Part shown: in pieces, positions 9,417 to 56,150 of the stretch
Numbering within the stretch: the stretch's first letter is position 1
Layout: every line of letters begins with the position of its first letter
Program-made: the position numbers and the translations under genes
DNA from: Azolla caroliniana
Taxonomy: Eukaryota; Plantae; Polypodiophyta
Reading direction: 5' to 3'
NCBI GenBank assembly: GCA_043228905.1
Contig: JBHGNT010000008.1
Coordinates: forward strand, 248,001 to 312,000
DNA length: 64,000 nt
Notes under the pieces: model-generated
What the model saw: only the letters and a program-made list of their open reading frames with translations
What the model was told of the DNA's origin: nothing
Databases searched by the model: none

Positions 9417-9487
9417 TGTCATAACTAGACTCGAACCCATAACCTTTTGTTACACGGGTCGAGACTTTACCATTAGGTTATGAGTTG
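9417..9487 (-). other. tRNA-like Pol III A-box/B-box cassette at the U3 terminus, antisense to the element (also 14678-14748 -, 50782-50852 +, 56080-56150 +)
   Basis: Minus strand reads A-box-like TAACCTAATGG (9480-9470) and B-box GGTTCGAGTC (9437-9428) at canonical tRNA positions 8-19 and 52-61. The stems are degenerate, so this is not a functional tRNA gene. Confidence 0.6.
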
Positions 9488-9539
9488 TAATTTGAAGGAT
9501 ATTATTTTCATTTAGGTTTTATTAGGAAATTGATGTATA

Positions 9540-9587
9540 TTCCAGATTTCTCTGGAACATTCTAGAAACTTCAGGAGTATTCCTGAA
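9540..9587. promoter_or_regulatory. Heat-shock element array of 10 in-phase alternating nTTCn/nGAAn units (also 14801-14848, 50682-50729, 55980-56027)
   Basis: TTC-ca-GAt-tt-cTC-tg-GAA-ca-TTC-ta-GAA-ac-TTC-ag-GAg-ta-TTC-ct-GAA. Seven of ten units are perfect, including four consecutive ones. Ends 5 bp before the TATA box. Confidence 0.8.
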
Positions 9588-9592
9588 GACAC

Positions 9593-9599
9593 TATAAAA
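9593..9599 (+). promoter_or_regulatory. TATA box of the LTR promoter
   Basis: TATAAAA, starting 33 nt upstream of the PBS-complementary sequence that is the predicted transcript 5' end. Confidence 0.75.
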
Positions 9600-9706
9600 G
9601 GAGGCGCAAGGCATTAGTTCGAACCAAATCAGTTCAACGCCAGTCTTAAGCCTTCTAACTACTGTTGTATATCTTCCGTCATATAATACATATATCTTTC
9701 GCATCA

Positions 9707-9710
<4 letters not shown>

Positions 9711-9746
<36 letters not shown>
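9711..9746 (+). repeat. (TC)n microsatellite within the LTR
   Basis: (TC)18 here, (TC)20 in the 3' LTR, and (GA)17 and (GA)16 in the two LTRs of copy 2. Confidence 0.95.
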
Positions 9747-9750
<4 letters not shown>

Positions 9751-9844
9751 ACTCATTCCTTCTCTCAAAGTTCGACACCTCTCATAGTACTAATCCTTCT
9801 TTTAGTACTAATTCCTTCTCTGCCTTAATAGAGTTCCTGACAGT

Positions 9845-9856
9845 TTGAACCGATTT
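9845..9856 (+). other. Primer-binding site, self-priming (Tf1-type)
   Basis: TTGAACCGATTT lies 2 nt after the LTR end and lacks the TGG complementary to tRNA CCA. It is the exact reverse complement of LTR sequence AAATCGGTTCAA (14887-14898; one mismatch in the 9626-9637 copy). Confidence 0.8.
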
Positions 9857-9931
9857 CTCCCTACTAGTCTCCCTCTTCCTTCTGTCTCTCTCCTTTCCTA
9901 CTAGTCTCTTATTTCCCTTTTCCTTCATCCC

Positions 9932-11101
9932 ATGGCCACCGTTAGCGCTGAAGAGTATCAATCCGTTTTCTCGGAATTTCAATGCTTGAAAGAGAAGTTT
10001 CATGCTTTGGAACAAGAAAATCAACGCTTGTTGGGGGATCTTCAGCAAATTTCCTTAGAAAAGCAGCAAACGCAACAACAGCATGGGGAACTTGCGTTAC
10101 GCGTGCAACAACTCGAAGCAACCATCGTAGCAATGCAACAACAAGGGCACGGAGCACAAGGGATTCATAAAGAACCCAAGATTGGCCTTCCCACGAAGTT
10201 CGATGGAACGCGATCGCAGTTTAGAGGGTTTCTTAACCAGGTACGGTTAGTTATTCAAATGCATCCGTCCCGATATCCCACCGATGCATCACGAGTCGGT
10301 TTAGTAGGCACGTTGTTAAATGGCTCAGCATTAGCATGGTTCGCTCCGCTACTAGAAAAGGAATCTCCAGTACTAAATAATTTTGAAGAATTCATAAGTG
10401 AGTTTAAAGCATGTTTTGGAGATACTGACAGCATAAGGACTGCAATCAACAAAATCCGGCGATTACGCCAAGGTGACCGTCCAGCCTCCGCATATGCTGC
10501 AGATTTCCGCCTACTCGCCGCCGATATCCCCTGGGATGATCAAGCATTGATGGAGCAGTTCCGCTATGGTCTACGCAACGATGTCAAGGATTTACTCTTG
10601 ACTTTCCCTGAAGAGCCAAAATCATTAACAGAAGCAATCAGTCGAGCGGTCAGATGTGACAACCGCCTCTTCGAGCGACGTTCGGAACGACAATTTCAGA
10701 TGCCGAGGGCAAGATCCGAGCCTACCTATGCCTCAATGGTAGCGAAACCTTTTCAAAGGGAGTCACATAATGCGCCTCCAGTAAGTACTCCAACTCCAAT
10801 GGAAATTGACACTACACGTCGTCGTGGGCCGCTATCGGAGGAGGAAAAGCAACGACGCCGAACAAACCGATTATGCCTTTATTGCGGTGGACCAGGGCAT
10901 ATCGCGATAAACTGTCCCCATAGACCAAGAAGGCAGGTAAACCAAGTCATTGTTAGTTCTGACTATACTAAACCCGAGTCTATGTCAGTAGGAATCTCTG
11001 ATAATCCTCATAGTCATAATAGTCCTAATAGTACTAATAGTCCGAATCTCGCAAACAAATTTGATGTCCTTAGCCAATTAGAAGAAGAGTTAAACGACTA
11101 A
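9932..11101 (+). CDS. gag: Gag polyprotein (N-terminal coiled coil, Ty3-type capsid, CCHC zinc knuckle), 389 aa
   Basis: ATG in CCCATGG context. Q/E/L-rich heptad N-terminus, KFDG capsid motif, LRQG major-homology-like region, and CLYCGGPGHIAINC (CX2CX4HX4C). Confidence 0.95.
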   Translation: MATVSAEEYQSVFSEFQCLKEKFHALEQENQRLLGDLQQISLEKQQTQQQHGELALRVQQLEATIVAMQQQGHGAQGIHKEPKIGLPTKFDGTRSQFRGFLNQVRLVIQMHPSRYPTDASRVGLVGTLLNGSALAWFAPLLEKESPVLNNFEEFISEFKACFGDTDSIRTAINKIRRLRQGDRPASAYAADFRLLAADIPWDDQALMEQFRYGLRNDVKDLLLTFPEEPKSLTEAISRAVRCDNRLFERRSERQFQMPRARSEPTYASMVAKPFQRESHNAPPVSTPTPMEIDTTRRRGPLSEEEKQRRRTNRLCLYCGGPGHIAINCPHRPRRQVNQVIVSSDYTKPESMSVGISDNPHSHNSPNSTNSPNLANKFDVLSQLEEELND

Positions 11102-11133
11102 GTCCAGCCAAAATAGGAGCCGTTTGGTTGGAC
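11089..11133 (+). promoter_or_regulatory. Programmed -1 ribosomal frameshift signal (slippery G_TTA_AAC plus stem-loop)
   Basis: The pol frame is -1 relative to gag and open from 11074. Heptamer at 11089-11095, 6-nt spacer, then an 11-bp stem GTCCAGCCAAA/TTTGGTTGGAC with one G-U pair. Confidence 0.8.
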
Positions 11134-14100
11134 AGCCCTAGATCTGTGCAGCCCATTAGTGGTTCCATTCCCTCTAAGCAAGTTAGTGATGTGTTCGTAG
11201 TCCAAGTAGCAGTTAGTACTAAAAGTACCCCTCCAGTACATACCTTAGCCCTTCTAGATTCCGGAGCTAATTCTTGCTTCATGGATAGGAATTTTGCCCG
11301 AGCTCATCAGATATCTCTCAGAAAGCTCCCATGTCCAGCCTCAGTAGTAGTCATTGATGGTCGTCCCATTGCTTCTGGTAATATCATAGAAGAGTCGGAA
11401 CCCGTTAATATTGTCCTAGATAACTTAACATGTGTAGTATCATTTAATATTATTAGTATTCCAGAACATCCCATAGTTTTAGGATTACCATGGTTCGAGT
11501 TACATGACCCAGACATAGATTGGAGGACAAGGGAAATCCGGTTGCGACAAACCCAAGGATCTACCCAGAAGGTTGCAACCATTTCGCTACGTCAGTTGCG
11601 TGAGGAAGGGCGCAAGGAGGAAATGTTTCTCTTTGCAATATCAGTACAACCCTCCAGCACCACCAAAGAGGAGTCCACCGTTCAACTCCCCGAGAAGTAT
11701 CGTCAGTATGCTGATGTGTTCGATAAAGTACAAGCCAACACACTTCCTCATCATCGGCCGTACGACTGCGCCATCGACTTACAACCGGGAAAAGAGCCGC
11801 CATGGGGGCCGATCTACAATTTGTCACCAACCGAGCTAGAAGTCCTTCGAGCCTATATAGAGGAGAATTTGGAGAACGGTTTCATTCAGCATTCGAAATC
11901 TCCAGCCGGCGCACCCATTTTCTTCGTCAAGAAAAAAGATGGCTCGCTTCGACTCGTTGTAGATTACCGTGGCTTGAATAAGGTCACAGTAAGAAATAGG
12001 TATGCTCTTCCCCTTATCTCAAGTCTTTTAGAACGGATCAACGGTGCCAGGTTCTTCACGAAGATCGACTTACGAGGAGCCTATAACCTCGTACGGATCC
12101 AACCAGGAGATGAATGGAAGACCGCGTTTCGCACCAGATATGGGCATTTCGAGTATACGGTCATGCCGTTCGGACTCACTAATGCGCCGGCAGTCTTCCA
12201 GCACATGGCGAATGATATATTTCGAGACCTCTTGGATGATTTTTTGATCATCTATTTGGATGATCTACTGGTTTATTCAAAGACCCAAGAAGAACATGAT
12301 TCTCATGTACTATTAGTACTAAAACGACTTCGAGAACATGGTCTGTATGCAAAGTTAGAGAAATGTAGTTTCGGGTGCAACCAAGTGGAGTTTCTCGGCT
12401 ATGTCATCTCCTCAGAAGGCATATCTATGGACCCAGCCAAGGTCAAAACGGTGATAGAATGGCACACTCCGCGTTCGGTGCGGGATGTGCAATGCTTCCT
12501 AGGCTTTGCAAATTTCTACCGGAAGTTCATACAAAATTACTCAAAAATTGTGCTACCTCTCACACAGCTCACCAGGAAGGGACAATCATTCATTTGGTCT
12601 AAAGAGACGGACATGGCTTTCGAGAGTCTTAAGAAGGCGTTTACATCAGCTCCAATTTTAGGTCATGTGGATCCGGAAAAACCATTCATTATCGAAGCTG
12701 ATGCATCGGATTTCGCATTGGGGAGCATTCTGTCACAACAGGGTAACGACGAGAAGCTACATCCTGTGGCTTTCCACTCCCGTAAGTTTGACGCCGCCGA
12801 AATCAACTACGAAATTCATGATAAAGAGCTATTAGCAATAGTTGATTCTTTTATGCAATGGAGGCATTTCCTGGAGGGATCTCCTCATCAGGTCACTGTA
12901 TTCAGTGACCACAAGAACCTTGCCTACTTTCAAGATGCTCGTGTACTGAATCGACGTCAAGCTCGGTGGGCCCATTTCCTCACACGCTTCGACTTCAAAA
13001 TTACATATCGTCCGGGGAAGCACCAAGGGAAGGCAGATGCATTATCACGGCGTTCGTATCTAACACCACGTCCCGGTGAGCCAGCTTTCGATAACCAGAA
13101 GCAAGTAATCTTGGGTCCAGCACGACTGCAAGCAGCACAGATCTTTGACATGCCCGTGGATTCCGACATTACCAATACTATACGTGAGGACTTGAAGACT
13201 GACGCTTTCGCCCAAGCTATACTAGCACAAATTGACCCCTCTCGAGCGTCATGTTCACAATCACAATCACCAGGTACGGATTATCGGCAATTCAAATACT
13301 GTGATGGATTACTCTTCTTTAAAGAACTTTTGTATGTTCCTAATGGTTCTTGCCGCCTTCGAGTAGTACAAAACTGCCATGACACATATACAGCAGGACA
13401 TTTTGGTAGTACTAAAACATTAGATTTAGTACAACGATCATTCTGGTGGCCCCGTATGCGACAATTTGTCGAAGATTTTGTTCGGACTTGCGATACATGC
13501 TGCAGAGCGAAAATGCCAAGACATCATCCATATGGTTTATTAGAACCATTACCAATTCCAAGCAAGCCATGGCAATCCATTGCTCTTGACTTCATTACAG
13601 ATCTTCCAGTCTCTAAGGGATTCAGTGCGATTCTCACAGTGGTGGATCGATATACGAAGATGGCTCATTTCTTACCATGTACTAAAGAAATATCTAGTGA
13701 AGACACCGCCGAAATTGTCATGCGGGAAGTATGTCGGCATCATGGACTCCCTGATAATATCATCAGCGATCGTGGACCCCAGTTTGTGTCAAAATTCTGG
13801 AAGCACCTTTTTAAAATGCTCAAGGTCACTTGTAACCTCTCCTCCGGCTACCACCCACAAACCGACGGTCAAGCCGAACGAACAAATCAAACACTGGAGC
13901 AGTATCTGCGGTGCTTTCTCAACTATCATCAGAATGACTGGGCAGATATTCTTCCGTTCGCCGAATTTGCCTATAATAACGCTATCCACGCATCGACTAA
14001 AGTCACGCCATTCTACGCTTATACGGGATATCATCCCCGGTGGTGTGTCCTTGAAACCCCAGAAGTGTCCACAAATCCTTGCGCGGAGGATCGTTTGGAG

Positions 14101-14685
14101 CGGTTACGCAAGATACAAGCGGATTTATCTACTCAACTCCAACAAGCTCAACAATCACACAAGGACTACGCAGATCGTCATCGACTTCCATCCAGTTTTA
14201 ACATTGGAGATCGGGTGTGGCTGCTACGACGACACATCAAGACTACTCGCCCATGTGAGAAGTTGGATTATCGACGATTAGGTCCTTTCCGTATTATCGG
14301 GAAGATTAATGATGTCGCTTTTCGTCTCGAGCTACCTCCGCAACTTCGGATACACCCGGTGTTTCATAGTTCTCTCCTCGAACCCTATCACGAGAGCACT
14401 ATCCCAGGACGTACTATACAACCTCCACCTCCTATCGAGCTCGAAGATGGACCTGAGTATGAGGTCGCTGCCATCCTCGATTCCAAGATTGTTCGCAACA
14501 AGCTCTACTATCTAGTCGATTGGCTAGGATATAGTCCCAGCGAGCGTACTTGGGAACCGATCGAGAATGTGACCAATGCTCGTGCTCTTCTAGAAGACTT
14601 CCATCGACGATATCCCGAGAAACCGGGTCCTCAATCCAAAACGACTCGTGAAACTCGTCGTTTTAAAGGGGGGATAGTGTCATAA
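11128..14685 (+). CDS. pol: Pol polyprotein: aspartic protease, reverse transcriptase, RNase H, integrase, chromodomain (frame open from 11074; probably made as a Gag-Pol fusion)
   Basis: LLDSGA (PR). VMPFGL and YLDD (RT). EADASD (RH). HX6H...CDTC, LDF, SDRG and GQAERTN (IN). LGPF (GPY/F motif). EYEVAAIL...YLVDWLGY...TWEP (chromodomain). Confidence 0.97.
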   Translation: MDSPRSVQPISGSIPSKQVSDVFVVQVAVSTKSTPPVHTLALLDSGANSCFMDRNFARAHQISLRKLPCPASVVVIDGRPIASGNIIEESEPVNIVLDNLTCVVSFNIISIPEHPIVLGLPWFELHDPDIDWRTREIRLRQTQGSTQKVATISLRQLREEGRKEEMFLFAISVQPSSTTKEESTVQLPEKYRQYADVFDKVQANTLPHHRPYDCAIDLQPGKEPPWGPIYNLSPTELEVLRAYIEENLENGFIQHSKSPAGAPIFFVKKKDGSLRLVVDYRGLNKVTVRNRYALPLISSLLERINGARFFTKIDLRGAYNLVRIQPGDEWKTAFRTRYGHFEYTVMPFGLTNAPAVFQHMANDIFRDLLDDFLIIYLDDLLVYSKTQEEHDSHVLLVLKRLREHGLYAKLEKCSFGCNQVEFLGYVISSEGISMDPAKVKTVIEWHTPRSVRDVQCFLGFANFYRKFIQNYSKIVLPLTQLTRKGQSFIWSKETDMAFESLKKAFTSAPILGHVDPEKPFIIEADASDFALGSILSQQGNDEKLHPVAFHSRKFDAAEINYEIHDKELLAIVDSFMQWRHFLEGSPHQVTVFSDHKNLAYFQDARVLNRRQARWAHFLTRFDFKITYRPGKHQGKADALSRRSYLTPRPGEPAFDNQKQVILGPARLQAAQIFDMPVDSDITNTIREDLKTDAFAQAILAQIDPSRASCSQSQSPGTDYRQFKYCDGLLFFKELLYVPNGSCRLRVVQNCHDTYTAGHFGSTKTLDLVQRSFWWPRMRQFVEDFVRTCDTCCRAKMPRHHPYGLLEPLPIPSKPWQSIALDFITDLPVSKGFSAILTVVDRYTKMAHFLPCTKEISSEDTAEIVMREVCRHHGLPDNIISDRGPQFVSKFWKHLFKMLKVTCNLSSGYHPQTDGQAERTNQTLEQYLRCFLNYHQNDWADILPFAEFAYNNAIHASTKVTPFYAYTGYHPRWCVLETPEVSTNPCAEDRLERLRKIQADLSTQLQQAQQSHKDYADRHRLPSSFNIGDRVWLLRRHIKTTRPCEKLDYRRLGPFRIIGKINDVAFRLELPPQLRIHPVFHSSLLEPYHESTIPGRTIQPPPPIELEDGPEYEVAAILDSKIVRNKLYYLVDWLGYSPSERTWEPIENVTNARALLEDFHRRYPEKPGPQSKTTRETRRFKGGIVS
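14665..14677 (+). other. Polypurine tract
   Basis: AAAGGGGGGATAG immediately precedes TGTCA of the 3' LTR. Confidence 0.9.
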
Positions 14686-14967
14686 CTAGACTCGAACCCA
14701 TAACCTTTTGTTACACGGGTCGAGACTTTACCATTAGGTTATGAGTTGTAATTTGAAGGATATTATTTTCATTTAGGTTTTATTAGGAAATTGATGTATA
14801 TTCCAGATTTCTCTGGAACATTCTAGAAACTTCAGGAGTATTCCTGAAGACACTATAAAAGGAGGCGCAAGGCATTAGTTCGAACCAAATCGGTTCAACG
14901 CCAGTCTTAAGCCTTCTAACTACTGTTGTATATCTTCCGTCATATAATACATATATCTTTCGCATCA

Positions 14968-15015
<48 letters not shown>

Positions 15016-15148
15016 ACTCATTCCTTCTCTCAAAGTTCGACACCTCTCATAGTACTAATCCTTCTCTGTCTTAGTACTATTCCCCAACAATAGTACTAAT
15101 CCTTCTTTTAGTACTAATTCCTTCTCTGCCTTAATAGAGTTCCTGACA
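14678..15148 (+). repeat. 3' LTR of copy 1 (471 bp)
   Basis: TGTCA...TGACA, followed by TSD GTTTG. Confidence 0.96.
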
Positions 15149-18100
15149 GTTTGAACACTAAAATCCGATATCACATGGGCCAGGTATGAACATTTTAATT
15201 TACTCTCGGGCTCTTCTCAACTCCCTCCTCAAATTTGGTTATTTCTTCATGTCTCTGAACGTGAGTTTCAAAATCCTTATTTTTTACTTCCATATGATAG
15301 CTAACATTTTAAGCTTAGATTCAAATGTTTGAACACTAAAATCCAATATCACATGGGACAGGTATGAACATTTTAATCTACTCTCGGGCTCTTCTCAACT
15401 CCCTCCTCAAATTTGGTAATTTCTTCATGTCTCTCGACCTGAGTTTCGAAAGCTTGATTTTCTAATTCCATATCATAGCTATCGTTGTTAGCTTCCATTC
15501 GCATGTTTGAACACTAAAATCCGATATCACATGGGCCAGGTATGAACATTTTAATTTACTCTCGGGCTCTTCTCAACTCCCTCCTCAAATTTGGTTATTT
15601 CTTCATGTCTCTGAACGTGAGTTTCAAAATCCTTGATTTTCTAATTCCATATCATAGCTAGCATTGTTAGCTTCGATTCGCATGTTTGAACACTCAAATC
15701 CGATATCACATGGGCCAGGTATGAACATTTTAATTTTCTCTCGGGCTCTTCTCAACTCCCTCCTCAAATTTGGTTATTTTTTCATGTCTCTTGACGTGAG
15801 TTTCAAAAGCTTGATTTTTGAATTCCATATCATAGGTAGCTTTGCTAGCTTCGATTCGCATGTTTGAACACAAAAATCCGATATCACATGCGCCAGGTAT
15901 AAACATTTTAATTTACTCTCGGGCTCTTCTCTACTCCCTCCTCTAATTTTGGAATTTCTTCATGTCTCTCGACCTGAGTTTCAAAATCTTGATTTTTGAT
16001 CTGCATAACATAGCTCGCATTGTTAGCTTCGGTTCGCATATTTGAACACTAAAATCCGATATCACATGGGCCAGGTATGAACATTTTAATTTACTCTAGG
16101 CCTCTTCTCTACTCCCTCCTCTAATTTGGTAATTTTTTCATGTCTCTCGACCTGAGTTTCAAAACCTTGATTTTTTAATTCGATATCATAGCTAGACTTG
16201 TTAGCTTCGATTTGTATGTTTGAACACTAAAATCCGATATCACATGGGCCAGGTATGAACATTTTAATTTACTCTCGGGCTCTTCTCTACTCCCTCCTCT
16301 AATTTTGGAATTTCTTCATGTCTCTCGACCTGAGTTTGAAAATCTTGATTTTTTAATTCCATATTATAGCTAGCATTGTTAGCTTCGATTCGCATGTTTG
16401 AACACTAAAATCCTATATCACATGGGCCAGGTATGAACATTTTAATTTACTCACGCGCTCTTCTCAACTCCCTCCTCTAATTTGGTAATTTCTTCATGTC
16501 TCTCGACCTGAGTTTCAAAACCTTGATTTTTTAGTTCTATATCATAGCTAGACTTTGTTAACTTCGATTTGTATGTTTGAACACTAAAATCCGATATCAT
16601 ATGGGCCAGGTATGAACATTTTAATTTACTCTCGGGCTCTTCTCTACTCCCTCCTCTAATTTTGGAATTTCTTCATGTCTCTCGACCTGAGTTTGAAAAT
16701 CTTGATTTTTTAATTCCATATTATAGCTAGCATTGTTAGCTTCGATTCGCATGTTTGAACACTAAAATCCTATATCACATGGGCCAGGTATGAACATTTT
16801 AATTTACTCACGCGCTCTTCTCAACTCCCTCCTCAAATTTGGTAATTTCTTCATGTCTCTCGACTTGAGTTTGAAAATCTTGATTTTTTAATTCTATATC
16901 ATAGCTAGCCTTGTTAGCTTCGATTCTTATGTTTGAACACTAAAATCTGATATCACATGGGCCAGGTATGAACATTTTAATTTACTCTCGGGCTCTTCTC
17001 AACTCCCTTCTCAAATTTGGTTATTTCTTCATGTCTCTCGACGTGAGTTTCGAAAGCTTGATTTTTTAATTCCATATCATAGGTAGCTTTGCTAGCTTCG
17101 ATTCGCATGTTTAAACACTAAAATCCGATATCACATGGGCCAGGTATGAACATTTGAATTTACTCTCGGGCTCTTCTCAACTCCCTCCTCAAATTTGGTT
17201 ATTTCTTCATGTCTCTCAACGTGAGTTTCAAAATCCTTATTTTTTACTTCCATATGATAGCTAACATTGTAAGCTTCGATTCAAATGTTTGAACACTAAA
17301 ATCCAATATCACATGGGACAGGTATGAACATTTTAATTTACTCTCGGGCTCTTCTCAACTCCCTCCTCAAATTTGGTAATTTCTTCATGTCTCTCGACCT
17401 GAGTTTCAAAAGCTTCATTTTTTAATTCCATATCATAGGTAGCATTGTTAGCTTCGATTCGCATGTTTGAACACAAAAATCCGATATCACATGGGCCAGG
17501 TATGAACATTTTAATTTACTCTCGGCCTCTTCTCTACTCCCTCTTCTAATTTGGTAATTTCTTCATGTCTCTCGACCTGAGTTTCAAAACCTTGATTTTT
17601 TAATTGGATATCATAGCTAGACTTGTTAGCTTCGATTCGTATGTTTGAACACTAAAATCCGATATCACATGGGCCAGGTATGAACATTTTAATTTACTCT
17701 CGGGCTCTTCTCTACTCCCTCCTCTAATTTTGGAATTTCTTCATGTCTCTCGACCTGAGTTTGAAAATCTTGATTTTTTAATTCCATATTATAGCTAGCA
17801 TTGTTAGCTTCGATTCGCATGTTTGAACACTAAAATCCTATATCACATGGGCCAGGTATGAACATTTTAATTTACTCACGCGCTCCTCTAAACTCCCTCC
17901 TCAAATTTGGTAATTTCTTCATGTCTCTCGACCTGAGTTTGAAAATCTTGATTTTTTATTCCATATCATAGGTAGGTTTGTTAGCTTCCATTCGCATGTT
18001 TAAACACTCAAATCCGATATCACATTGGCCAAGTCTAAACATTTTAATTTACTCTCGGGCTCTTCTCTACTCCCTCCTCTAATTTGGGAATTTCTTCATG

Positions 18101-42100: not shown

Positions 42101-44200
42101 ATATTTGAACACTAAAATCCGATATCATATGGACCAGGTATGAAGATTTTAATTTACTCTCGGGCTCTTCTCAACTCCCTCCTCAAATTGGGTAATTTCT
42201 TCATGTCTCTCGACCTGAGTTTCAAAATCTTGATTTTTTAATTCCATATCATAGGTACCTTTGTTATCTTCGATTCTCATATTTGAACACTAAAATCCGA
42301 TATCACATGGGCCAGGTATGACCATTTTAATTTACTCTCGGGCTCTTCTCTACTCTCTCCTCTAATTTGGTAATTTTCAGAAGCTTGATTTTTTAATTCC
42401 ATATCATAGGTACCTTTGTTAGCTTCGATTCGCATATTTGAACACTAAAATCCGATATCACATGGGCCAGGTATGACCATTTTAATTTACTCTCGGCCTC
42501 TTCTCTACTCCCTCCTCTAATTTGGTAATTTCTTCATGTCTCTCGACCTGAGTTTCAAAAGCTTGATTTTTTAATTCCATATCATAGCTAGCCTTGTTAG
42601 CTTCGAATTGTTTGTTTGAACACTAAAATCCGATATCACGTGGGCCAGGTATGAATATTTTAATGTACTCTCGGGCTGTTCTCAACTCCCTCCTCAAATT
42701 GGGTAATTTCGTCATGTCTCTCGACCTGAGATTCAAAATCTTGATTTTTTCATTCCATGTCATGGGTACCTTTGTTAGCTTCGATTCTCATATTTAAACA
42801 CTAAAATCCGATATCACATGGGCGAGGTATGAACATTTTAATTTACTCTCGGCCTCTTCTCTACTCTCTCCTCTAATTCGGGAATTTCTTCATGTCTCTC
42901 GACCTGAGTTTCAAAATCTTGATTTTTTAATTCCATACCATAGGTACCTTTGTTATCTTCGATTCTCATATTTGAACACTAAAATCCGATATCACATGGG
43001 CCAGGTATGACCATTTTAATTTACTCTCGGGCTCTTCTCTACTCCCTCCTCTAATTTGGTAATTTCTTCATGTCTCTCGACCTGAGTTTCAAAACCTTGA
43101 TTTTTTAATTACATATCATAGCTAGCCTTGTTAGCTTCGATTCGTATGTTTGAACAATAAAATCCGATATCACGTGGGCCAGGTATGAACATTTTAATTT
43201 ACTCTCGGGCTCTTCTCAACTCCCTCCTCAAATTGGGTAATTTCGTGATGTCTTTCGACCTGAGATTCAAAATCTTGATTTTTTAATTCCATATCATGGG
43301 TACCTTTGTTAGCTTCGATTCTCATATTTAAACACTAAAATCCGATATCACATGGGCCAGGTATGAACATTTTAATTTACTCTCGGTCTCTTCTCTACTC
43401 CCTCCTCTAATTTGGGAATTGCTTCATGTCTCTCGACCTGAGTTTCAAAATCTTGATTTTTTAATTCCATAACATAGCTCGTATTGTTAGCTTCCATTCG
43501 CATATTTAAACACTAAAATCCGATATCACATGGGCCAGGTATGAACATTTTAATTTACTGTCGGGCTCCTCTCTACTCCCTCCTGTCAGAGGTACCTTTG
43601 TTAGCTTCGATTCGCATATTTGAACACTAAAATCCGATATCAGATGAGCCAGGTATGAACATTTTAATTTACTCACGCGCTCTTTCAACACCCTCCTCTA
43701 ATTTGGTAATTTCTTCATGTCTCTCGACCTGATTTTCAGAAGCTTGATTTTTTAATTCCATATCATAGGTACCTTTGTTAGCTTCGATTCGCATATTTGA
43801 ACACTAAAGTCCGATATCACATGGGCCACGTATAAGCATTTTAATTTACTCACGCGCTCTTCTCAACTCCCTCCTCTAATTTGGTAGTTTCTTCATGTCT
43901 CTCGACCTGATTTTAGAAGCTTGATTTTTTAATTCCATATCATAGGTACCTTTGTGAGCTTCGATTCGCATATTTGAACACTAAAATCCGATATCACATG
44001 GGCCAGGTATGAACATTTTAATTTACTCTCGGGCTCCTCTCTACTCCCTCCTCTAATTTGGTAATTTCTTAATATCTCTCGACCTGAGTTTGAAAATCTT
44101 GATTTTTTAATTCCATATCATAGCTAGCTTTGCTAGCTTCGATTTGCATGTTTAAACAGTAAAATCCGATATCACATGGGCTAGGTCTAAACATTTTAAT
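30200..44200 (+). repeat. About 5711-bp higher-order repeat (about 33 monomers), about 2.4 tandem copies
   Basis: The identical marker ORF occurs at 32083, 37794 and 43506. The deletion marker TTTTCAGAAG occurs at 30951, 36662 and 42374. Spacing is 5711-5712 and limits are approximate. Confidence 0.88.
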
Positions 44201-47200: not shown

Positions 47201-50200
47201 TAGCTTCGAATCGTATGATTGAACACTAAAATCCGATATCACATGGGCAGGTATGAACATTTTAATTTACTCTCGGGCTCTTCTCAACTCCCTCCTCAAA
47301 TTTAGTAATTTCTTCATGTGTCTCGACGTGAGTTTTAAGAGCTTGATTTTTTAATTCGATATCATAGCTAGCCTTGTTAGCTTCGATTCGTATGTTTGAA
47401 CACTAAAATCCGATATCACATGGGCCAGGTCTAAACATTTTAATTTACTCTCGGGCTCTTCTCAACTCCCTCCTCAAATTGGGTAATTTTTTCATGTCTC
47501 TCGACGTGAGTTTCAAAATCTTGATTTCTTAATTCCATATCATAGCTTGCGTTGTTAGCTTCGATTCCAATGTTTAAACACTAAAATCCGATATCACATT
47601 GGCCAAGTCTAAACATTTTAATTTACTCTCGGGCTCTTCTCTACTCCCTCCTCTAATTCGGGAATTTCTTCAATCTCTCGACCTGAAATTCAAAATCTTG
47701 ATTTTTTAATTCGATATCATAGCTCGCATTGTTAGCTTCGATTCGCATATCTGAACACGAAAATCCGATATCACATGGGCCAGGTCTAAACATTTTAATT
47801 TACTCTCGGGCTCTTCTCTACTCCCTCCTCTAATTTGGGAATTTCTTTATGTCTCTCAACCTGAGTTTCAAAATCTTGATTTTTTAATTACATATCATAG
47901 CTAGCCTTGTTAGCTTCGATTCGTATGTTTGAACACTAAAATCGGATATCACATGGGCCAGCTATGAACATTTTAATTTACGATCGGGCTCTTCTCAACT
48001 CCCTCCTCAAATTTGGTTATTTCTTCATGTCTCTCAACGTGAGTTTCAAAATCCTGATTTTTTAATTCCATATCATAGCTTGCGTTGTTATTTTCAATTC
48101 CAATGTTTAAACACTAAAATCCGATATCACATGGGCCAAGTCTAAACATTTTAATTTACTCTCGGGCTCTTCTCTACTCCCTCCTCTAATTCGGGAATTT
48201 CTTCATGTCTCTCGACCTGAAATTCAAAATCTTGATTTTCGAATTCCATAACATGGCTCGCATTGTTAGCTTCGATTCGCATATTTGAACACGAAAATCC
48301 GATATCACATGGGCCAGGTCCAAACATTTTAATTTACTCTCGGGCTCTTCTCTACTCCCTCCTCTAATTTGGGAATTTCTTTATGTCTCTGAACCTGAGT
48401 TTCAAAATCTTGATTTTTTAATTCCATATCATAGCTAGCCTTGTTAGCTTCGATTCGTATGTTTGAACACTAAAATCCGATATCACATGGGCCAGGTATG
48501 AACATTTTAATTTAATCTCGGCCTCTTCTCTCGACCCTCCTCTAATTTTTTAATTTCTTCATGTCTCTCGACCTGAGTTTCAAAACCTTGATTTTTTAAT
48601 TCCATATCATAGCTAGCCTTGTTAGCTTCGAATCGTATGTTTGAACACTAAAATCGGATATCACATGGGCCAGCTATGAACATTTTAATTTACGATCGGG
48701 CTCTTCTCAACTCCCTCCTCAAATTGGGTAATTTCTTCATGTCTCTCGACGTGAGTTTCAAAATCTTGATTTTTTAATTCCATATCATAGCTTACGTTGT
48801 TATTTTCGATTCCAATGTTTAAACACTAAAATCCGATATCACATGGGCCAAGTCTAAACATTTTAATTTAGTCTCGGGCTCTTCTCTACTCCCTCCTCTA
48901 ATTCGGGAATTTCTTCATGTCTCTCGACCTGAAATTCAAAATCTTGATTTTCGAATTCCATTATATAGCTCGCATTGTTAGCTTCGATTCGCATATTTGA
49001 ACACTAAAATCCGATATCACATGGGCCAGGTCTAAACATTTTAATTTACTCTCGGGCTCTTCTCTACTCCCTCCTCTAATTTGGGAATTTCTTCATGTCT
49101 CTCAACCTGAGTTACAAAATCTTGATTTTTTATTTCCATATCATAGCTAGCCTTGTTAGCCTCGATTCGCATGTTTGAACACTAAAATCCGATATCACAT
49201 GGGCAGGTATGAACATTTTAATTTACTCTCGGGCTCTTCTCAACTCCCTCCTCAAATTTAGTAATTTCTTCATGTCTCTCGACGTGAGTTTTAAGAGCTT
49301 GATTTTTTAATTCGATATCATAGCTAGCCTTGTTAGCTTCGATTCGTATGTTTGAACACTAAAATCCGATATCACATGGGCCAGGTCTAAACATTTTAAT
49401 TTACTCTCGGGCTCTTCTCAACTCCCTCCTCAAATTGGGTAATTTCTTCATGTCTCTCGACGTGAGTTTCAAAATCTTGATTTTTTAATTCCATATCATA
49501 GCTTGCGTTGTTAGCTTCGATTCCAATGTTTAAACACTAAAATCCGATATCACATTGGCCAAGTCTAAACATTTTAATTTACTCTCGGGCTCTTCTCTAC
49601 TCCCTCCTCTAATTCGGGAATTTCTTCATGTCTCTCGACCTGAAATTCAAAATCTTGATTTTTTAATTCGATATCATAGCTCGCATTGTTAGCTTCGATT
49701 CGTATATTTGAACACGAAAATCCGATATCACATGGGCCAGGTCTAAACATTTTAATTTACTCTCGGGCTCTTCTCTACTCCCTCCTCTAATTTGGGAATT
49801 TCTTTATGTCTCTCAACCTGAGTTTCAAAATCTTGATTTTTTAATTCCATATTATAGCTAGCCTTGTTAGCTTCGAATCGTATGTTTGAACACTAAAATC
49901 GGATATCACATGGGCCAGCTATGAACATTTTAATTTACGATCGGGCTCTTCTTAACTCCCTCCTCAAATTGGGTAATTTCTTCATGTCTCTCGACGTGAG
50001 TTTCAAAATCCTGATTTTTTAATTTCATATCATAGCTTGCGTTGTTATTTTCGATTCCAATGTTTAAACACTAAAATCCGATATCACATGGGCCAAGTCT
50101 AAACATTTTAATTTACTCTCGGGCTCTTCTCTACTCCCTCCTCTAATTCGGGAATTTCTTCATGTCTCTCGACCTGAAATTCAAAATCTTGATTTTCGAA

Positions 50201-50387
50201 TTCCATTACATAGCTCGCATTGTTAGCTTCGATTCGCATATTTGAACACTAAAATCCGATATCACATGGGCCAGGTCTAAACATTTTAATTTACTCTCGG
50301 GCTCTTCTCTACTCCCTCCTCTAATTTGGGAATTTCTTCATGTCTCTCAACCTGAGTTACAAAATCTTGATTTTTTAATTCCATATC

Positions 50388-50520
50388 TGTCAGGAACTCT
50401 ATTAAGGCAGAGAAGGAATTAGTACTAAAAGAAGGATTAGTACTATTGTTGGGGAATAGTACTAAGACAGAGAAGGATTAGTACTATGAGAGGTGTCGAA
50501 CTTTGAGAGAAGGAATGAGT

Positions 50521-50562
<42 letters not shown>

Positions 50563-50852
50563 TGATGCGAAAGATATATGTATTATATGACGGAAGATAT
50601 ACAACAGTAGTTAGAAGGCTTAAGACTGGCGTTGAACCGATTTGGTTCGAACTAATGCCTTGCGCCTCCTTTTATAGTGTCTTCAGGAATACTCCTGAAG
50701 TTTCTAGAATGTTCCAGAGAAATCTGGAATATACATCAATTTCCTAATAAAACCTAAATGAAAATAATATCCTTCAAATTACAACTCATAACCTAATGGT
50801 AAAGTCTCGACCCGTGTAACAAAAGGTTATGGGTTCGAGTCTAGTTATGACA
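50388..50852 (-). repeat. 3' LTR of copy 2 (465 bp)
   Basis: TGTCAGG...TTATGACA on +, adjacent to the PPT complement CTATCCCCCCTTT (50853-50865). Confidence 0.96.
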
Positions 50853-53800
50853 CTATCCCCCCTTTAAAACGACGAGTTTCACGAGTCGTTTTGGATTGAG
50901 GACCCGGTTTCTCGGGATATCGTCGATGGAAGTCTTCTAGAAGAGCACGAGCATTGGTCACATTCTCGATCGGTTCCCAAGTACGCTCGCTGGGACTATA
51001 TCCTAGCCAATCGACTAGATAGTAGAGCTTGTTGCGAACAATCTTGGAATCGAGGATGGCAGCGACCTCATACTCAGGTCCATCTTCGAGCTCGATAGGA
51101 GGTGGAGGTTGTATAGTACGTCCTGGGATAGTGCTCTCGTGATAGGGTTCGAGGAGAGAACTATGAAACACCGGGTGTATCCGAAGTTGCGGAGGTAGCT
51201 CGAGACGAAAAGCGACATCATTAATCTTCCCGATAATACGGAAAGGACCTAATCGTCGATAATCCAACTTCTCACATGGGCGAGTAGTCTTGATGTGTCG
51301 TCGTAGCAGCCACACCCGATCTCCAATGTTAAAACTGGATGGAAGTCGATGACGATCTGCGTAGTCCTTGTGTGATTGTTGAGCTTGTTGGAGTTGAGTA
51401 GATAAATCCGCTTGTATCTTGCGTAACCGCTCCAAACGATCCTCCGCGCAAGGATTTGTGGACACTTCTGGGGTTTCAAGGACACACCACCGGGGATGAT
51501 ATCCCGTATAAGCGTAGAATGGCGTGACTTTAGTCGATGCGTGGATAGCGTTATTATAGGCAAATTCGGCGAACGGAAGAATATCTGCCCAGTCATTCTG
51601 ATGATAGTTGAGAAAGCACCGCAGATACTGCTCCAGTGTTTGATTTGTTCGTTCGGCTTGACCGTCGGTTTGTGGGTGGTAGCCGGAGGAGAGGTTACAA
51701 GTGACCTTGAGCATTTTAAAAAGGTGCTTCCAGAATTTTGACACAAACTGGGGTCCACGATCGCTGATGATATTATCAGGGAGTCCATGATGCCGACATA
51801 CTTCCCGCATGACAATTTCGGCGGTGTCTTCACTAGATATTTCTTTAGTACATGGTAAGAAATGAGCCATCTTCGTATATCGATCCACCACTGTGAGAAT
51901 CGCACTGAATCCCTTAGAGACTGGAAGATCTGTAATGAAGTCAAGAGCAATGGATTGCCATGGCTTGCTTGGAATTGGTAATGGTTCTAATAAACCATAT
52001 GGATGATGTCTTGGCATTTTCGCTCTGCAGCATGTATCGCAAGTCCGAACAAAATCTTCGACAAATTGTCGCATACGGGGCCACCAGAATGATCGTTGTA
52101 CTAAATCTAATGTTTTAGTACTACCAAAATGTCCTGCTGTATATGTGTCATGGCAGTTTTGTACTACTCGAAGGCGGCAAGAACCATTAGGAACATACAA
52201 AAGTTCTTTAAAGAAGAGTAATCCATCACAGTATTTGAATTGCCGATAATCCGTACCTGGTGATTGTGATTGTGAACATGACGCTCGAGAGGGGTCAATT
52301 TGTGCTAGTATAGCTTGGGCGAAAGCGTCAGTCTTCAAGTCCTCACGTATAGTATTGGTAATGTCGGAATCCACGGGCATGTCAAAGATCTGTGCTGCTT
52401 GCAGTCGTGCTGGACCCAAGATTACTTGCTTCTGGTTATCGAAAGCTGGCTCACCGGGACGTGGTGTTAGATACGAACGCCGTGATAATGCATCTGCCTT
52501 CCCTTGGTGCTTCCCCGGACGATATGTAATTTTGAAGTCGAAGCGTGTGAGGAAATGGGCCCACCGAGCTTGACGTCGATTCAGTACACGAGCATCTTGA
52601 AAGTAGGCAAGGTTCTTGTGGTCACTGAATACAGTGACCTGATGAGGAGATCCCTCCAGGAAATGCCTCCATTGCATAAAAGAATCAACTATTGCTAATA
52701 GCTCTTTATCATGAATTTCGTAGTTGATTTCGGCGGCGTCAAACTTACGGGAGTGGAAAGCCACAGGATGTAGCTTCTCGTCGTTACCCTGTTGTGACAG
52801 AATGCTCCCCAATGCGAAATCCGATGCATCAGCTTCGATAATGAATGGTTTTTCCGGATCCACATGACCTAAAATTGGAGCTGATGTAAACGCCTTCTTA
52901 AGACTCTCGAAAGCCATGTCCGTCTCTTTAGACCAAATGAATGATTGTCCCTTCCTGGTGAGCTGTGTGAGAGGTAGCACAATTTTTGAGTAATTTTGTA
53001 TGAACTTCCGGTAGAAATTTGCAAAGCCTAGGAAGCATTGCACATCCCGCACCGAACGCGGAGTGTGCCATTCTATCACCGTTTTGACCTTGGCTGGGTC
53101 CATAGATATGCCTTCTGAGGAGATGACATAGCCGAGAAACTCCACTTGGTTGCACCCGAAACTACATTTCTCTAACTTTGCATACAGACCATGTTCTCGA
53201 AGTCGTTTTAGTACTAATAGTACATGAGAATCATGTTCTTCTTGGGTCTTTGAATAAACCAGTAGATCATCCAAATAGATGATCAAAAAATCATCCAAGA
53301 GGTCTCGAAATATATCATTCGCCATGTGCTGGAAGACTGCCGGCGCATTAGTGAGTCCGAACGGCATGACCGTATACTCGAAATGCCCATATCTGGTGCG
53401 AAACGCGGTCTTCCATTCATCTCCTGGTTGGATCCGTATGAGGTTATAGGCTCCTCGTAAGTCGATCTTCGTGAAGAACCTGGCACCGTTGATCCGTTCT
53501 AAAAGACTTGAGATAAGGGGAAGAGCATACCTATTTCTTACTGTGACCTTATTCAAGCCACGGTAATCTACAACGAGTCGAAGCGAGCCATCTTTTTTCT
53601 TGACGAAGAAAATGGGTGCGCCGGCTGGAGATTTCGAATGCTGAATGAAACCGTTCTCCAAATTCTCCTCTATATAGGCTCGAAGGACTTCTAGCTCGGT
53701 TGGTGACAAATTGTAGATCGGCCCCCATGGCGGCTCTTTTCCCGGTTGTAAGTCGATGGCGCAGTCGTACGGCCGATGATGAGGAAGTGTGTTGGCTTGT

Positions 53801-54402
53801 ACTTTATCGAACACATCAGCATACTGACGATACTTCTCGGGGAGTTGAACGGTGGACTCCTCTTTGGTGGTGCTGGAGGGTTGTACTGATATTGCAAAGA
53901 GAAACATTTCCTCCTTGCGCCCTTCCTCACGCAACTGACGTAGCGAAATGGTTGCAACCTTCTGGGTAGATCCTTGGGTTTGTCGCAACCGGATTTCCCT
54001 TGTCCTCCAATCTATGTCTGGGTCATGTAACTCGAACCATGGTAATCCTAAAACTATGGGATGTTCTGGAATACTAATAATATTAAATGATACTACACAT
54101 GTTAAGTTATCTAGGACAATATTAACGGGTTCCGACTCTTCTATGATATTACCAGAAGCAATGGGACGACCATCAATGACTACTACTGAGGCTGGACATG
54201 GGAGCTTTCTGAGAGATATCTGATGAGCTCGGGCAAAATTCCTATCCATGAAGCAAGAATTAGCTCCGGAATCTAGAAGGGCTAAGGTATGTACTGGAGG
54301 GGTACTTTTAGTACTAACTGCTACTTGGACTACGAACACATCACTAACTTGCTTAGAGGGAATGGAACCACTAATGGGCTGCACAGATCTAGGGCTGTCC
54401 AA
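50845..54402 (-). CDS. pol: Pol polyprotein (PR-RT-RH-IN-chromodomain), copy 2
   Basis: 1185-aa ORF matching copy 1 except NLVRI>NLIRI. The frameshift signal is mirrored at 54397-54441. Confidence 0.97.
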   Translation of the reverse strand: MDSPRSVQPISGSIPSKQVSDVFVVQVAVSTKSTPPVHTLALLDSGANSCFMDRNFARAHQISLRKLPCPASVVVIDGRPIASGNIIEESEPVNIVLDNLTCVVSFNIISIPEHPIVLGLPWFELHDPDIDWRTREIRLRQTQGSTQKVATISLRQLREEGRKEEMFLFAISVQPSSTTKEESTVQLPEKYRQYADVFDKVQANTLPHHRPYDCAIDLQPGKEPPWGPIYNLSPTELEVLRAYIEENLENGFIQHSKSPAGAPIFFVKKKDGSLRLVVDYRGLNKVTVRNRYALPLISSLLERINGARFFTKIDLRGAYNLIRIQPGDEWKTAFRTRYGHFEYTVMPFGLTNAPAVFQHMANDIFRDLLDDFLIIYLDDLLVYSKTQEEHDSHVLLVLKRLREHGLYAKLEKCSFGCNQVEFLGYVISSEGISMDPAKVKTVIEWHTPRSVRDVQCFLGFANFYRKFIQNYSKIVLPLTQLTRKGQSFIWSKETDMAFESLKKAFTSAPILGHVDPEKPFIIEADASDFALGSILSQQGNDEKLHPVAFHSRKFDAAEINYEIHDKELLAIVDSFMQWRHFLEGSPHQVTVFSDHKNLAYFQDARVLNRRQARWAHFLTRFDFKITYRPGKHQGKADALSRRSYLTPRPGEPAFDNQKQVILGPARLQAAQIFDMPVDSDITNTIREDLKTDAFAQAILAQIDPSRASCSQSQSPGTDYRQFKYCDGLLFFKELLYVPNGSCRLRVVQNCHDTYTAGHFGSTKTLDLVQRSFWWPRMRQFVEDFVRTCDTCCRAKMPRHHPYGLLEPLPIPSKPWQSIALDFITDLPVSKGFSAILTVVDRYTKMAHFLPCTKEISSEDTAEIVMREVCRHHGLPDNIISDRGPQFVSKFWKHLFKMLKVTCNLSSGYHPQTDGQAERTNQTLEQYLRCFLNYHQNDWADILPFAEFAYNNAIHASTKVTPFYAYTGYHPRWCVLETPEVSTNPCAEDRLERLRKIQADLSTQLQQAQQSHKDYADRHRLPSSFNIGDRVWLLRRHIKTTRPCEKLDYRRLGPFRIIGKINDVAFRLELPPQLRIHPVFHSSLLEPYHESTIPGRTIQPPPPIELEDGPEYEVAAILDSKIVRNKLYYLVDWLGYSPSERTWEPIENVTNARALLEDFHRRYPEKPGPQSKTTRETRRFKGGIVS

Positions 54403-54428
54403 CCAAACGGCTCCTATTTTGGCTGGAC

Positions 54429-55598
54429 TTAGTCGTTTAACTCTTCTTCTAATTGGCTAAGGACATCAAATTTGTTTGCGAGATTCGGACTATTAGTACT
54501 ATTAGGACTATTATGACTATGAGGATTATCAGAGATTCCTACTGACATAGACTCGGGTTTAGTATAGTCAGAACTAACAATGACTTGGTTTACCTGCCTT
54601 CTTGGTCTATGGGGACAGTTTATCGCGATATGCCCTGGTCCACCGCAATAAAGGCATAATCGGTTTGTTCGGCGTCGTTGCTTTTCCTCCTCCGATAGCG
54701 GCCCACGACGACGTGTAGTGTCAATTTCCATTGGAGTTGGAGTACTTACTGGAGGCGCATTATGTGACTCCCTTTGAAAAGGTTTCGCTACCATTGAGGC
54801 ATAGGTAGGCTCGGATCTTGCCCTCGGCATCTGAAATTGTCGTTCCGAACGTCGCTCGAAGAGGCGGTTGTCACATCTGACCGCTCGACTGATTGCTTCT
54901 GTTAATGATTTTGGCTCTTCAGGGAAAGTCAAGAGTAAATCCTTGACATCGTTGCGTAGACCATAGCGGAACTGCTCCATCAATGCTTGATCATCCCAGG
55001 GGATATCGGCGGCGAGTAGGCGGAAATCTGCAGCATATGCGGAGGCTGGACGGTCACCTTGGCGTAATCGCCGGATTTTGTTGATTGCAGTCCTTATGCT
55101 GTCAGTATCTCCAAAACATGCTTTAAACTCACTTATGAATTCTTCAAAATTATTTAGTACTGGAGATTCCTTTTCTAGTAGCGGAGCGAACCATGCTAAT
55201 GCTGAGCCATTTAACAACGTGCCTACTAAACCGACTCGTGATGCATCGGTGGGATATCGGGACGGATGCATTTGAATAACTAACCGTACCTGGTTAAGAA
55301 ACCCTCTAAACTGCGATCGCGTTCCATCGAACTTCGTGGGAAGGCCAATCTTGGGTTCTTTATGAATCCCTTGTGCTCCGTGCCCTTGTTGTTGCATTGC
55401 TACGATGGTTGCTTCGAGTTGTTGCACGCGTAACGCAAGTTCCCCATGCTGTTGTTGCGTTTGCTGCTTTTCTAAGGAAATTTGCTGAAGATCCCCCAAC
55501 AAGCGTTGATTTTCTTGTTCCAAAGCATGAAACTTCTCTTTCAAGCATTGACATTCCGAGAAAACGGATTGATACTCTTCAGCGCTAACGGTGGCCAT
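54429..55598 (-). CDS. gag: Gag polyprotein, copy 2
   Basis: 389-aa ORF matching copy 1 except residue 16 (F versus C). Confidence 0.95.
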   Translation of the reverse strand: MATVSAEEYQSVFSECQCLKEKFHALEQENQRLLGDLQQISLEKQQTQQQHGELALRVQQLEATIVAMQQQGHGAQGIHKEPKIGLPTKFDGTRSQFRGFLNQVRLVIQMHPSRYPTDASRVGLVGTLLNGSALAWFAPLLEKESPVLNNFEEFISEFKACFGDTDSIRTAINKIRRLRQGDRPASAYAADFRLLAADIPWDDQALMEQFRYGLRNDVKDLLLTFPEEPKSLTEAISRAVRCDNRLFERRSERQFQMPRARSEPTYASMVAKPFQRESHNAPPVSTPTPMEIDTTRRRGPLSEEEKQRRRTNRLCLYCGGPGHIAINCPHRPRRQVNQVIVSSDYTKPESMSVGISDNPHSHNSPNSTNSPNLANKFDVLSQLEEELND

Positions 55599-55673
55599 GG
55601 GATGAAGGAAAAGGGAAATAAGAGACTAGTAGGAAAGGAGAGAGACAGAAGGAAGAGGGAGACTAGTAGGGAG

Positions 55674-55685
55674 AAATCGGTTCAA
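55674..55685 (-). other. Self-priming PBS of copy 2
   Basis: AAATCGGTTCAA on + is the perfect 12/12 inverted partner of TTGAACCGATTT at 55930-55941 in the 5' LTR. Confidence 0.8.
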
Positions 55686-55687
55686 AC

Positions 55688-55820
55688 TGTCAGGAACTCT
55701 ATTAAGGCAGAGAAGGAATTAGTACTAAAAGAAGGATTAGTACTATTGTTGGGGAATAGTACTAAGACAGAGAAGGATTAGTACTATGAGAGGTGTCGAA
55801 CTTTGAGAGAAGGAATGAGT

Positions 55821-55860
<40 letters not shown>

Positions 55861-56150
55861 TGATGCGAAAGATATATGTATTATATGACGGAAGATATAC
55901 AACAGTAGTTAGAAGGCTTAAGACTGGCGTTGAACCGATTTGGTTCGAACTAATGCCTTGCGCCTCCTTTTATAGTGTCTTCAGGAATACTCCTGAAGTT
56001 TCTAGAATGTTCCAGAGAAATCTGGAATATACATCAATTTCCTAATAAAACCTAAATGAAAATAATATCCTTCAAATTACAACTCATAACCTAATGGTAA
56101 AGTCTCGACCCGTGTAACAAAAGGTTATGGGTTCGAGTCTAGTTATGACA
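55688..56150 (-). repeat. 5' LTR of copy 2 (463 bp)
   Basis: Appears identical by eye to 50388-50852 except for one GA unit in the microsatellite. Confidence 0.96.

What the first reader, a model, noticed from the sequence alone, without database searches (positions are those of the whole stretch)
9417..56150. Candidate integrated system: a heterochromatin-targeting, self-insulating, heat-triggered satellite retrotransposon
Seen together in one 5.7-kb element: a chromodomain integrase, two recent independent insertions into a 178-bp satellite, a tRNA-like TFIIIC cassette at the outer LTR edge, a large HSE array, and self-priming. Inference: the element inserts into silent satellite chromatin, keeps its promoter accessible through Pol III factor binding, and fires on heat stress. 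The known plant centromere colonisers I am aware of (CRM, ATHILA, ALE/Tal1) belong to other lineages.
Basis: inference. Interest (0 to 1): 0.75.

Follow-up and report, generated by a model that had tools for sequence, protein, structure and literature searches.

The report
Jumping gene with hidden tRNA promoter
These are two copies of a young, genome-wide plant jumping gene that sits in satellite DNA no more often than chance, but its end repeats carry a conserved, backward-facing tRNA-type promoter beside a heat-shock switch, which likely helps it stay activatable in the repeat-rich DNA where its copies lie.

Summary
The parts are real; the "satellite retrotransposon" reading is not supported. 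Both 5.7-kb copies (9417-15148 +, 50388-56150 -) are intact Tcn1/Tf1-type chromoviruses. The family has 264 exact LTR-PBS junctions. Of 259 placed, 8 lie in satellite (one more at an edge) against 7.6-8.4 expected. The satellite is chromosome-terminal. Copies do favour repeats in general: 37 of 43 flanks against 51 of 120 random pieces. That fits the intact chromodomain cage. Self-priming is backed by compensatory changes across four families. The heat-shock array (7 of 10 units; shuffles reach at most 4) recurs in relatives. All of this has precedent.

The less expected part is an antisense, tRNA-like A-box/B-box cassette at the LTR edge. It occurs in all five lineages with RT ≥80% identical, in none of 35 distant LTR heads, and in several unrelated Gypsy LTRs of this genome. 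Spacing is 34 nt in 12 of 13. I found tRNA-derived LTRs described only for non-autonomous TRIMs (Helenus). Insulation and heat firing remain untested. The scan's earlier notes hold no look-alike.

The parts
9417..15148 (+). Copy E1, full-length Tcn1/Tf1-type chromovirus, TSD GTTTG (9412-9416, 15149-15153)
9417..9842 (+). E1 5' LTR (426 bp; lacks a 41-bp U5 duplication present in the other three LTRs)
9428..9480 (-). Antisense tRNA-like cassette: A box 9470-9480, B box 9428-9437, 34-nt spacing (repeated at 14689-14741; in E2 on + at 56087-56139 and 50789-50841)
9540..9587 (.). HSE array, 10 alternating GAA/TTC units, 7 perfect (repeated at 14801-14848 and in both E2 LTRs)
9593..9599 (+). TATA box, 33 nt before the self-primer
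9626..9637 (+). Self-primer (predicted 5' end of the RNA); one mismatch at 9631 in this LTR
9845..9856 (+). PBS complementary to the self-primer, followed by a 2-9 nt stretch that is hypervariable between copies
9932..11101 (+). gag ORF (capsid, CCHC knuckle)
11074..14685 (+). pol frame PR-RT-RH-IN-chromodomain, overlapping gag in another frame
14458..14610 (+). Chromodomain with the three aromatic cage positions (Y, W, Y)
14665..14677 (+). Polypurine tract
14678..15148 (+). E1 3' LTR (471 bp)
50388..56150 (-). Copy E2, full length, TSD ATATC; 5' LTR 55688-56150, 3' LTR 50388-50852; gag frame 54429-55625, pol frame 50845-54456
1..64000 (+). 178-bp satellite host array (all of the window outside the two copies), part of a 404-kb array that starts 3.4 kb from the telomere repeat of G000:C8

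Best explanation
This is a recently amplified, dispersed Tcn1/Tf1-type chromovirus family that primes reverse transcription with its own RNA 5' end, likely uses its caged chromodomain to insert into repeat-rich chromatin of any kind, and is likely switched on by heat-shock factor. The two satellite copies are ordinary members of that dispersed family. Its U3 is a conserved module: antisense tRNA-type B and A boxes, an AT-rich stretch, the HSE array, TATA, then the self-primer. The cassette faces away from the element, so it cannot make the genomic RNA. It most likely binds TFIIIC, which would place TFIIIB on the AT-rich stretch next to the HSEs and keep that enhancer open in silent surroundings. 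Shown: anatomy, copy distribution, repeat bias, covariation of primer and PBS, conservation of boxes and spacing. Inferred: methyl-H3K9 binding, heat induction, TFIIIC binding and any opening or barrier effect.
For: Dispersal: 264 junctions, 259 placed, over all 22 large contigs. No satellite excess: 8 (+1 edge) of 259 against 7.6-8.4, P(>=8) 0.50-0.61. Repeat bias: 37 of 43 interior flanks against 51 of 120 random 1-kb pieces, P 7e-7; against one piece per locus 17 of 40, P 6e-5; many different host repeats. Cage residues align with CDY/CDYL chromodomains. Primer/PBS pairs change together in E2, L241, L242 (12 nt each) and L351 (11 nt), with the primer 32-33 nt after TATA in the three measured. 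Tcn1-type features match the REXdb table, and the RT groups with fungal and vertebrate elements apart from seed-plant ones, SH-aLRT 99. Cassette in five lineages found by protein similarity, RT 80-88% identical, absent in 35 of 35 more distant LTR heads. AATGG, AGGT and GTTC are invariant in 5 of 5 aligned rows while the spacers diverge. HSE arrays of 6-8 of 10 units occur in four of those five lineages.
Against: No chromatin, binding or expression data. The repeat bias could come from loss of genic insertions rather than targeting. L241 has the cassette without HSEs, and the non-chromovirus LTRs that carry it lack HSEs, so the cassette is not tied to heat control. Moss RLG1, a chromodomain Gypsy, is repressed by heat (PMC7466625). 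The satellite share is an estimate from one 16-mer: at its floor (1.5% of the genome) 8 copies would be a 2-fold excess, P 0.04; if all 5 unlisted copies were in satellite, P 0.03-0.05. About 160 interior copies were assumed non-satellite from position, not read.
Confidence: 0.6

Rival explanations
1. Same dispersed element, but the cassette is a working Pol III promoter whose product matters: a short antisense RNA that reads outward from the 5' LTR and across the PPT from the 3' LTR, regulating silencing or plus-strand priming.
For: Exact tRNA-like A-to-B spacing and an AT-rich upstream stretch in all rows. E1 has CAA 5-7 nt before the tRNA +1 position (sequence; the plant Pol III upstream motifs are recalled). 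Pol III transcription is reported for Cassandra LTRs (PMC10886601).
Against: No shared terminator: a run of four T inside the LTR in L241, none before the LTR end in E1, the older subfamily or L242. Stems are decayed and no tRNA model matches.
Confidence: 0.17
2. The cassette is a neutral relic of a tRNA or SINE head captured once and passed among LTR families by U3 exchange; the element is an ordinary heat-responsive Tcn1 family.
For: U3 motifs are shared between unrelated Gypsy lineages here, so modules do move. Kojima notes in passing that 'not a few' Repbase LTRs resemble part of a tRNA (PMC10886601).
Against: Boxes and 34-nt spacing persist while the sequence between and around them is largely replaced; 14 hits in 400 kb of random DNA (one looks like a true tRNA gene) against 0-4 in ten shuffles.
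Confidence: 0.15
3. One reading: a satellite or centromere-colonising element.
For: Two copies in one array, against 0.39 expected at C8 density, P 0.06 before allowing for how the window was chosen; pairs also in the C16 and C20 arrays. A terminal centromere is not excluded without CENH3 data.
Against: About 97% of placed copies lie outside satellite; observed equals expected. About 170 kb of other satellite held no young copy. E1 and E2 are sister copies, so they are not two independent draws.
Confidence: 0.05

Closest known systems
Tcn1 clade of chromoviruses, Tf1/Sushi group (Neumann et al. 2019, PMC6317226: passages, Additional file 5 read; Novikova et al. 2010, PMC2864245: passages)
   Same: 5-bp TSD, length within 5466-9444 bp, self-priming, gag overlapping pol in another frame, chromodomain with aromatic cage
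   Different: No tRNA-like U3 cassette or HSE array in the passages read; the REXdb sequence files were too large to read, so no named reference entered the tree
RLG1 and RLG2 of Physcomitrium patens (Vendrell-Mir et al. 2020, PMC7466625: passages)
   Same: Chromodomain Gypsy proposed to target heterochromatic TE islands along the arms (RLG1); heat-induced Gypsy family (RLG2)
   Different: RLG1 is heat-repressed; sequence relationship to this family not tested
Helenus and Cassandra TRIMs (Kojima 2024, PMC10886601: parts 1-4 of 6 read)
   Same: LTR with tRNA-derived A and B boxes conserved and the RNA structure lost; a plant example in Selaginella
   Different: Those are short non-autonomous elements whose Pol III promoter is proposed to transcribe the element. 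Here the element is autonomous, has a TATA-driven Pol II layout, and the cassette is antisense at the outer edge
Tf1, Tf2 and Tj1 of fission yeasts (PMC4600332, PMC5341516: passages)
   Same: Self-primed reverse transcription; Tf2 LTR nucleosome loss and start-site shift on heat
   Different: Tj1 targets Pol III genes rather than carrying a Pol III cassette; Tf1 inserts at Pol II promoters
HSE-bearing LTR elements: ONSEN and Macrostomum Ty3 families (PMC12801592: abstract)
   Same: HSE array in the LTR promoter, acquired convergently
   Different: There heat induction was measured; here only inferred

Membership tests
Tcn1 chromovirus | Ty3/gypsy order PR-RT-RH-IN with a C-terminal chromodomain | tested here: met
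Tcn1 chromovirus | Aromatic cage in the chromodomain (95% of Tcn1) | tested here: met
   Y, W, Y aligned with CDY/CDYL; figure
Tcn1 chromovirus | Self-priming PBS instead of a tRNA PBS | tested here: met
   12-nt complementarity with covariation across families
Tcn1 chromovirus | 5-bp TSD, 5.5-9.4 kb, gag overlapping pol | tested here: met
   against the table
Tcn1 chromovirus | RT phylogeny with named Tcn1 references | tested here: inconclusive
   Quick tree puts it with fungal and vertebrate elements, apart from seed-plant and algal ones; no named Tcn1 sequence was available
Satellite/centromere-targeting retrotransposon (CRM, Athila, Tal1 type) | Copies enriched in the satellite arrays | tested here: not met
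   8 (+1) of 259 against 7.6-8.4 expected
Satellite/centromere-targeting retrotransposon (CRM, Athila, Tal1 type) | Host satellite is CENH3-bound | not testable with these tools
   Arrays found are chromosome-terminal; no ChIP data
Helenus/TRIMp3 | tRNA-derived A and B boxes in the LTR | tested here: met
Helenus/TRIMp3 | Short, non-coding, tRNA-primed element | tested here: not met
   5.7 kb, intact gag and pol, self-primed
Heat-responsive LTR element (ONSEN-like) | HSE array upstream of TATA | tested here: met
Heat-responsive LTR element (ONSEN-like) | Transcription or mobilisation on heat | not testable with these tools
   No raw RNA reads were available

The most novel reading that the evidence does not exclude
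Autonomous Gypsy elements of at least two unrelated lineages in this plant group have adopted an outward-facing tRNA-derived Pol III promoter in U3 as a portable boundary. It recruits TFIIIC/TFIIIB and keeps the LTR enhancer open inside heterochromatin, so that an element steered into silent chromatin by its chromodomain can still answer heat. This would be a built-in anti-silencing device of LTR elements.
Probability: 0.3. Interest if true: 0.75.

Novelty: new variant of a known kind. Interest (0 to 1): 0.5.

Why it matters
Elements that target heterochromatin face a standing puzzle: how do they stay transcribable there? A conserved Pol III cassette beside the enhancer of young autonomous families (28 of 34 full copies have an open pol frame) gives a precise, mutable candidate of two boxes. 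It extends tRNA-derived LTRs from non-autonomous TRIMs to coding elements. The hypervariable scar after the PBS may be a readable footprint of self-priming. The satellite-coloniser claim should be dropped.

Tried and rejected
1. Satellite confined to C8: my first motif gave 1,904 hits and suggested about 10-fold enrichment. It was array-specific; a shared 16-mer gave 44,122 hits, which removed the enrichment.
2. E2 as a segmental duplication of E1: rejected, because TSDs, orientation and monomer positions differ.
3. Functional tRNA in the LTR: ARAGORN and Rfam negative.
4. Preference for Gypsy coding DNA or for very young repeats: not seen (9 of 80 against 13 of 120; 4 of 43 against 7 of 120).
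5. Expression: no RNA holder listed; four contig sets laid gave nothing on start sites or level.
6. REXdb sequence files could not be read, so clade placement rests on features and an unanchored quick tree; the careful tree did not finish.
7. Literature: searches returned Helenus/Ajax as the only close case. These three searches are the basis for 'not found for autonomous elements'; subscription journals and Repbase entries were not seen.
8. The strict cassette pattern missed L241 and L242; they were recognised by eye and the test was repeated with a relaxed pattern. LTR heads there were located by a heuristic.
9. The tRNA isotype (Arg-UCU) is tentative: only 8 host tRNA calls were compared, and the Arg genes were found with a pattern built from the cassette.
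Full report
1. Observation. The window is 178-bp satellite except for two 5.7-kb inserts. E1 (9417-15148, +) has TSD GTTTG and E2 (50388-56150, -) has TSD ATATC. They differ by three substitutions and by length variants. Gag (9932-11101) overlaps a 1203-aa Pol frame carrying RT, RNase H, integrase and a chromodomain. The chromodomain aligns with CDY/CDYL domains with the three cage aromatics in place. The window is G000:C8:248001-312000 in a 523-Mb assembly with a plant-type telomere repeat. An earlier unchecked note calls the host a likely fern; I did not test that.

2. What the element is. Length, 5-bp TSD, overlapping gag and pol, caged chromodomain and self-priming match the Tcn1 row of the REXdb table. 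A quick RT tree of 35 rows places E1 with fungal and vertebrate elements, apart from seed-plant and algal ones, SH-aLRT 99. No named Tcn1 sequence was available, so membership is by features. The family is young: 18 of 34 full copies have no substitution between their LTRs and 28 of 34 have an open pol frame.

3. Satellite targeting, the decisive test. There are 264 exact LTR-PBS junctions (a few are nested artefacts). Of these, 259 were placed: 248 on the 22 large contigs and 11 on small ones; 5 were not listed. I read the flanks of about 100 copies, including those within about 1 Mb of contig ends and all listed on small contigs. Eight lie in satellite: E1, E2, two on C16, two on C20, two on small contigs; one more is at an array edge. 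A 16-mer shared by all arrays has 44,122 hits. At 0.46-0.51 hits per monomer this gives 15-17 Mb, about 3% of the assembly, and 7.6-8.4 expected copies, P(>=8) 0.50-0.61. Under the least favourable assumptions the excess is at most about 2-fold. Unread interior copies were assumed non-satellite because the 100 listed satellite places all lay within about 0.52 Mb of contig ends, and only 1 of 40 random 10-kb loci, an end-proximal one, held satellite. Satellite was present at 11 of 18 sampled contig starts and at the far ends of C8, C17 and C20. It is chromosome-terminal; a terminal centromere is not excluded. E1 and E2 are also sister copies, which weakens them as two independent observations.

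4. Heterochromatin bias. The 1-kb flanks match a 400-kb random library far more often than random pieces do: 37 of 43 for the interior set and 60 of 74 for all non-satellite flanks, against 51 of 120. The hosts are many different repeats. This is a sequence proxy, and selection against genic insertions is not excluded. It fits chromodomain targeting as shown for MAGGY (cited in PMC4600332, passages) and proposed for RLG1 (PMC7466625, passages).

5. Self-priming. The 12 nt that begin 33 nt after TATA are complementary to the PBS. In L241 and L242 both sides have changed together (12 nt each), and in L351 over 11 nt. The bases just after the PBS are hypervariable, which I read as a scar of copying to the primer's end (inference).

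6. Heat-shock array. Seven of ten units are perfect, against a best of 4 in 3000 shuffles. Arrays of 6-8 units occur in the older subfamily, L242/L321, L008 and L351, but not in L241. Induction is inferred; HSE capture by LTR elements is known to be convergent (PMC12801592, abstract).

7. The cassette. On the minus strand, LTR positions 12-64 read as an A box, 34 nt, then TTC of a B box. Four of 3000 shuffles match. The best match among 8 host tRNA calls is tRNA-Arg(UCU), score 59 against a shuffle maximum of 54. It is not a tRNA. It is present in all five lineages found by protein similarity with RT 80-88% identical: this family, an older subfamily, L242/L008, L351 and L241 (L008 was found by its chromodomain and grouped with L242 by its LTR). 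It was absent from 35 of 35 more distant LTR heads in metagenome contigs. Spacing is 34 nt in 12 of 13 transposon cassettes, though the patterns allowed a range (33-36 or wider); six of the 13 (L321, L323, L328, L335, L346, L350) and two more loci were first found by a box pattern, so for them only the spacing counts. An unrelated non-chromovirus Gypsy carries it inside its LTR in the same orientation, as do several further LTR-like repeats. No terminator is shared.

8. Mechanism. The cassette points outward, so it cannot make the genomic RNA. Conserved boxes with decayed stems and no shared terminator point to a DNA-binding role. TFIIIC bound at the boxes would set TFIIIB on the AT-rich stretch just before the HSEs (established Pol III geometry, recalled). 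That would give an open patch at the enhancer. I put this at roughly even odds against an antisense transcript or a relic. None of it was measured.

9. Comparison and verdict. tRNA-derived LTRs are described for the non-autonomous Helenus TRIMs; the same paper notes in passing that other Repbase LTRs resemble tRNA parts (PMC10886601, parts 1-4 of 6 read). Searches found no account of an antisense cassette in autonomous elements; supplements and Repbase entries that I could not see may hold one. The element is a new member of a known clade, and its U3 cassette is a new variant worth testing. The satellite-coloniser claim fails. Interest 0.5.

Noticed in passing
window 9857-9861 and the same place in 81 copies: A 2-9 nt stretch right after the PBS is hypervariable (36 distinct 5-mers in 81 copies against a median of 3, maximum 7, in gag) and almost free of A (4 of 312 bases). 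It is likely a scar of copying off the end of the self-primer.
   Followed up: partly
window E1 and E2, 41 kb apart: Nearest relatives of each other: 2 substitutions in the coding part, next nearest 12-14; only 3 of 1378 pairs are this close, the other two on different contigs. Local re-insertion or gene conversion; unexplained.
   Followed up: partly
G000 C1-C22: Copy density differs by contig, 0.05-1.04 per Mb, chi-square P 4e-11; ten contigs at 0.7 or more, twelve at 0.47 or less. Could reflect subgenomes or a haplotype mosaic.
   Followed up: partly
L181 (G000:C10:13634400-13643400), L323, L328, L335, L346, L350: An unrelated non-chromovirus Gypsy (L181, Pol 22-27% identical) carries the same antisense A-34-B cassette inside its LTR; five more repeats that look like LTRs of similar families carry it too. 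Some share U3 motifs with the chromovirus relative L241.
   Followed up: partly
G000:C8:1-432000: The array begins 3.4 kb from the CCCTAAA telomere repeat, switches strand at 4.8 kb and 153 kb, and holds a 2.7-kb insert at 217.7-220.3 kb with an RT-like frame (resemblance recalled; Pfam gave no match).
   Followed up: partly
window 25900-50400: Higher-order structure in the satellite: a 5.7-kb tandem duplication (29832-38532 against 35544-44244, 99%) and 753-bp units with 41-bp internal duplications.
   Followed up: no
G000:C22:1977000-1994000 and G000:C2:12246000-12278000: Clusters of family copies: three junctions 5.8 kb apart plus one inverted on C22, and a nested cluster on C2.
   Followed up: no
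L351 (G000:C12:2456214-2466213): A second young chromovirus family (RT 81% identical, LTRs 99.6% alike) with the same U3 order of cassette, HSEs, TATA and self-primer.
   Followed up: partly
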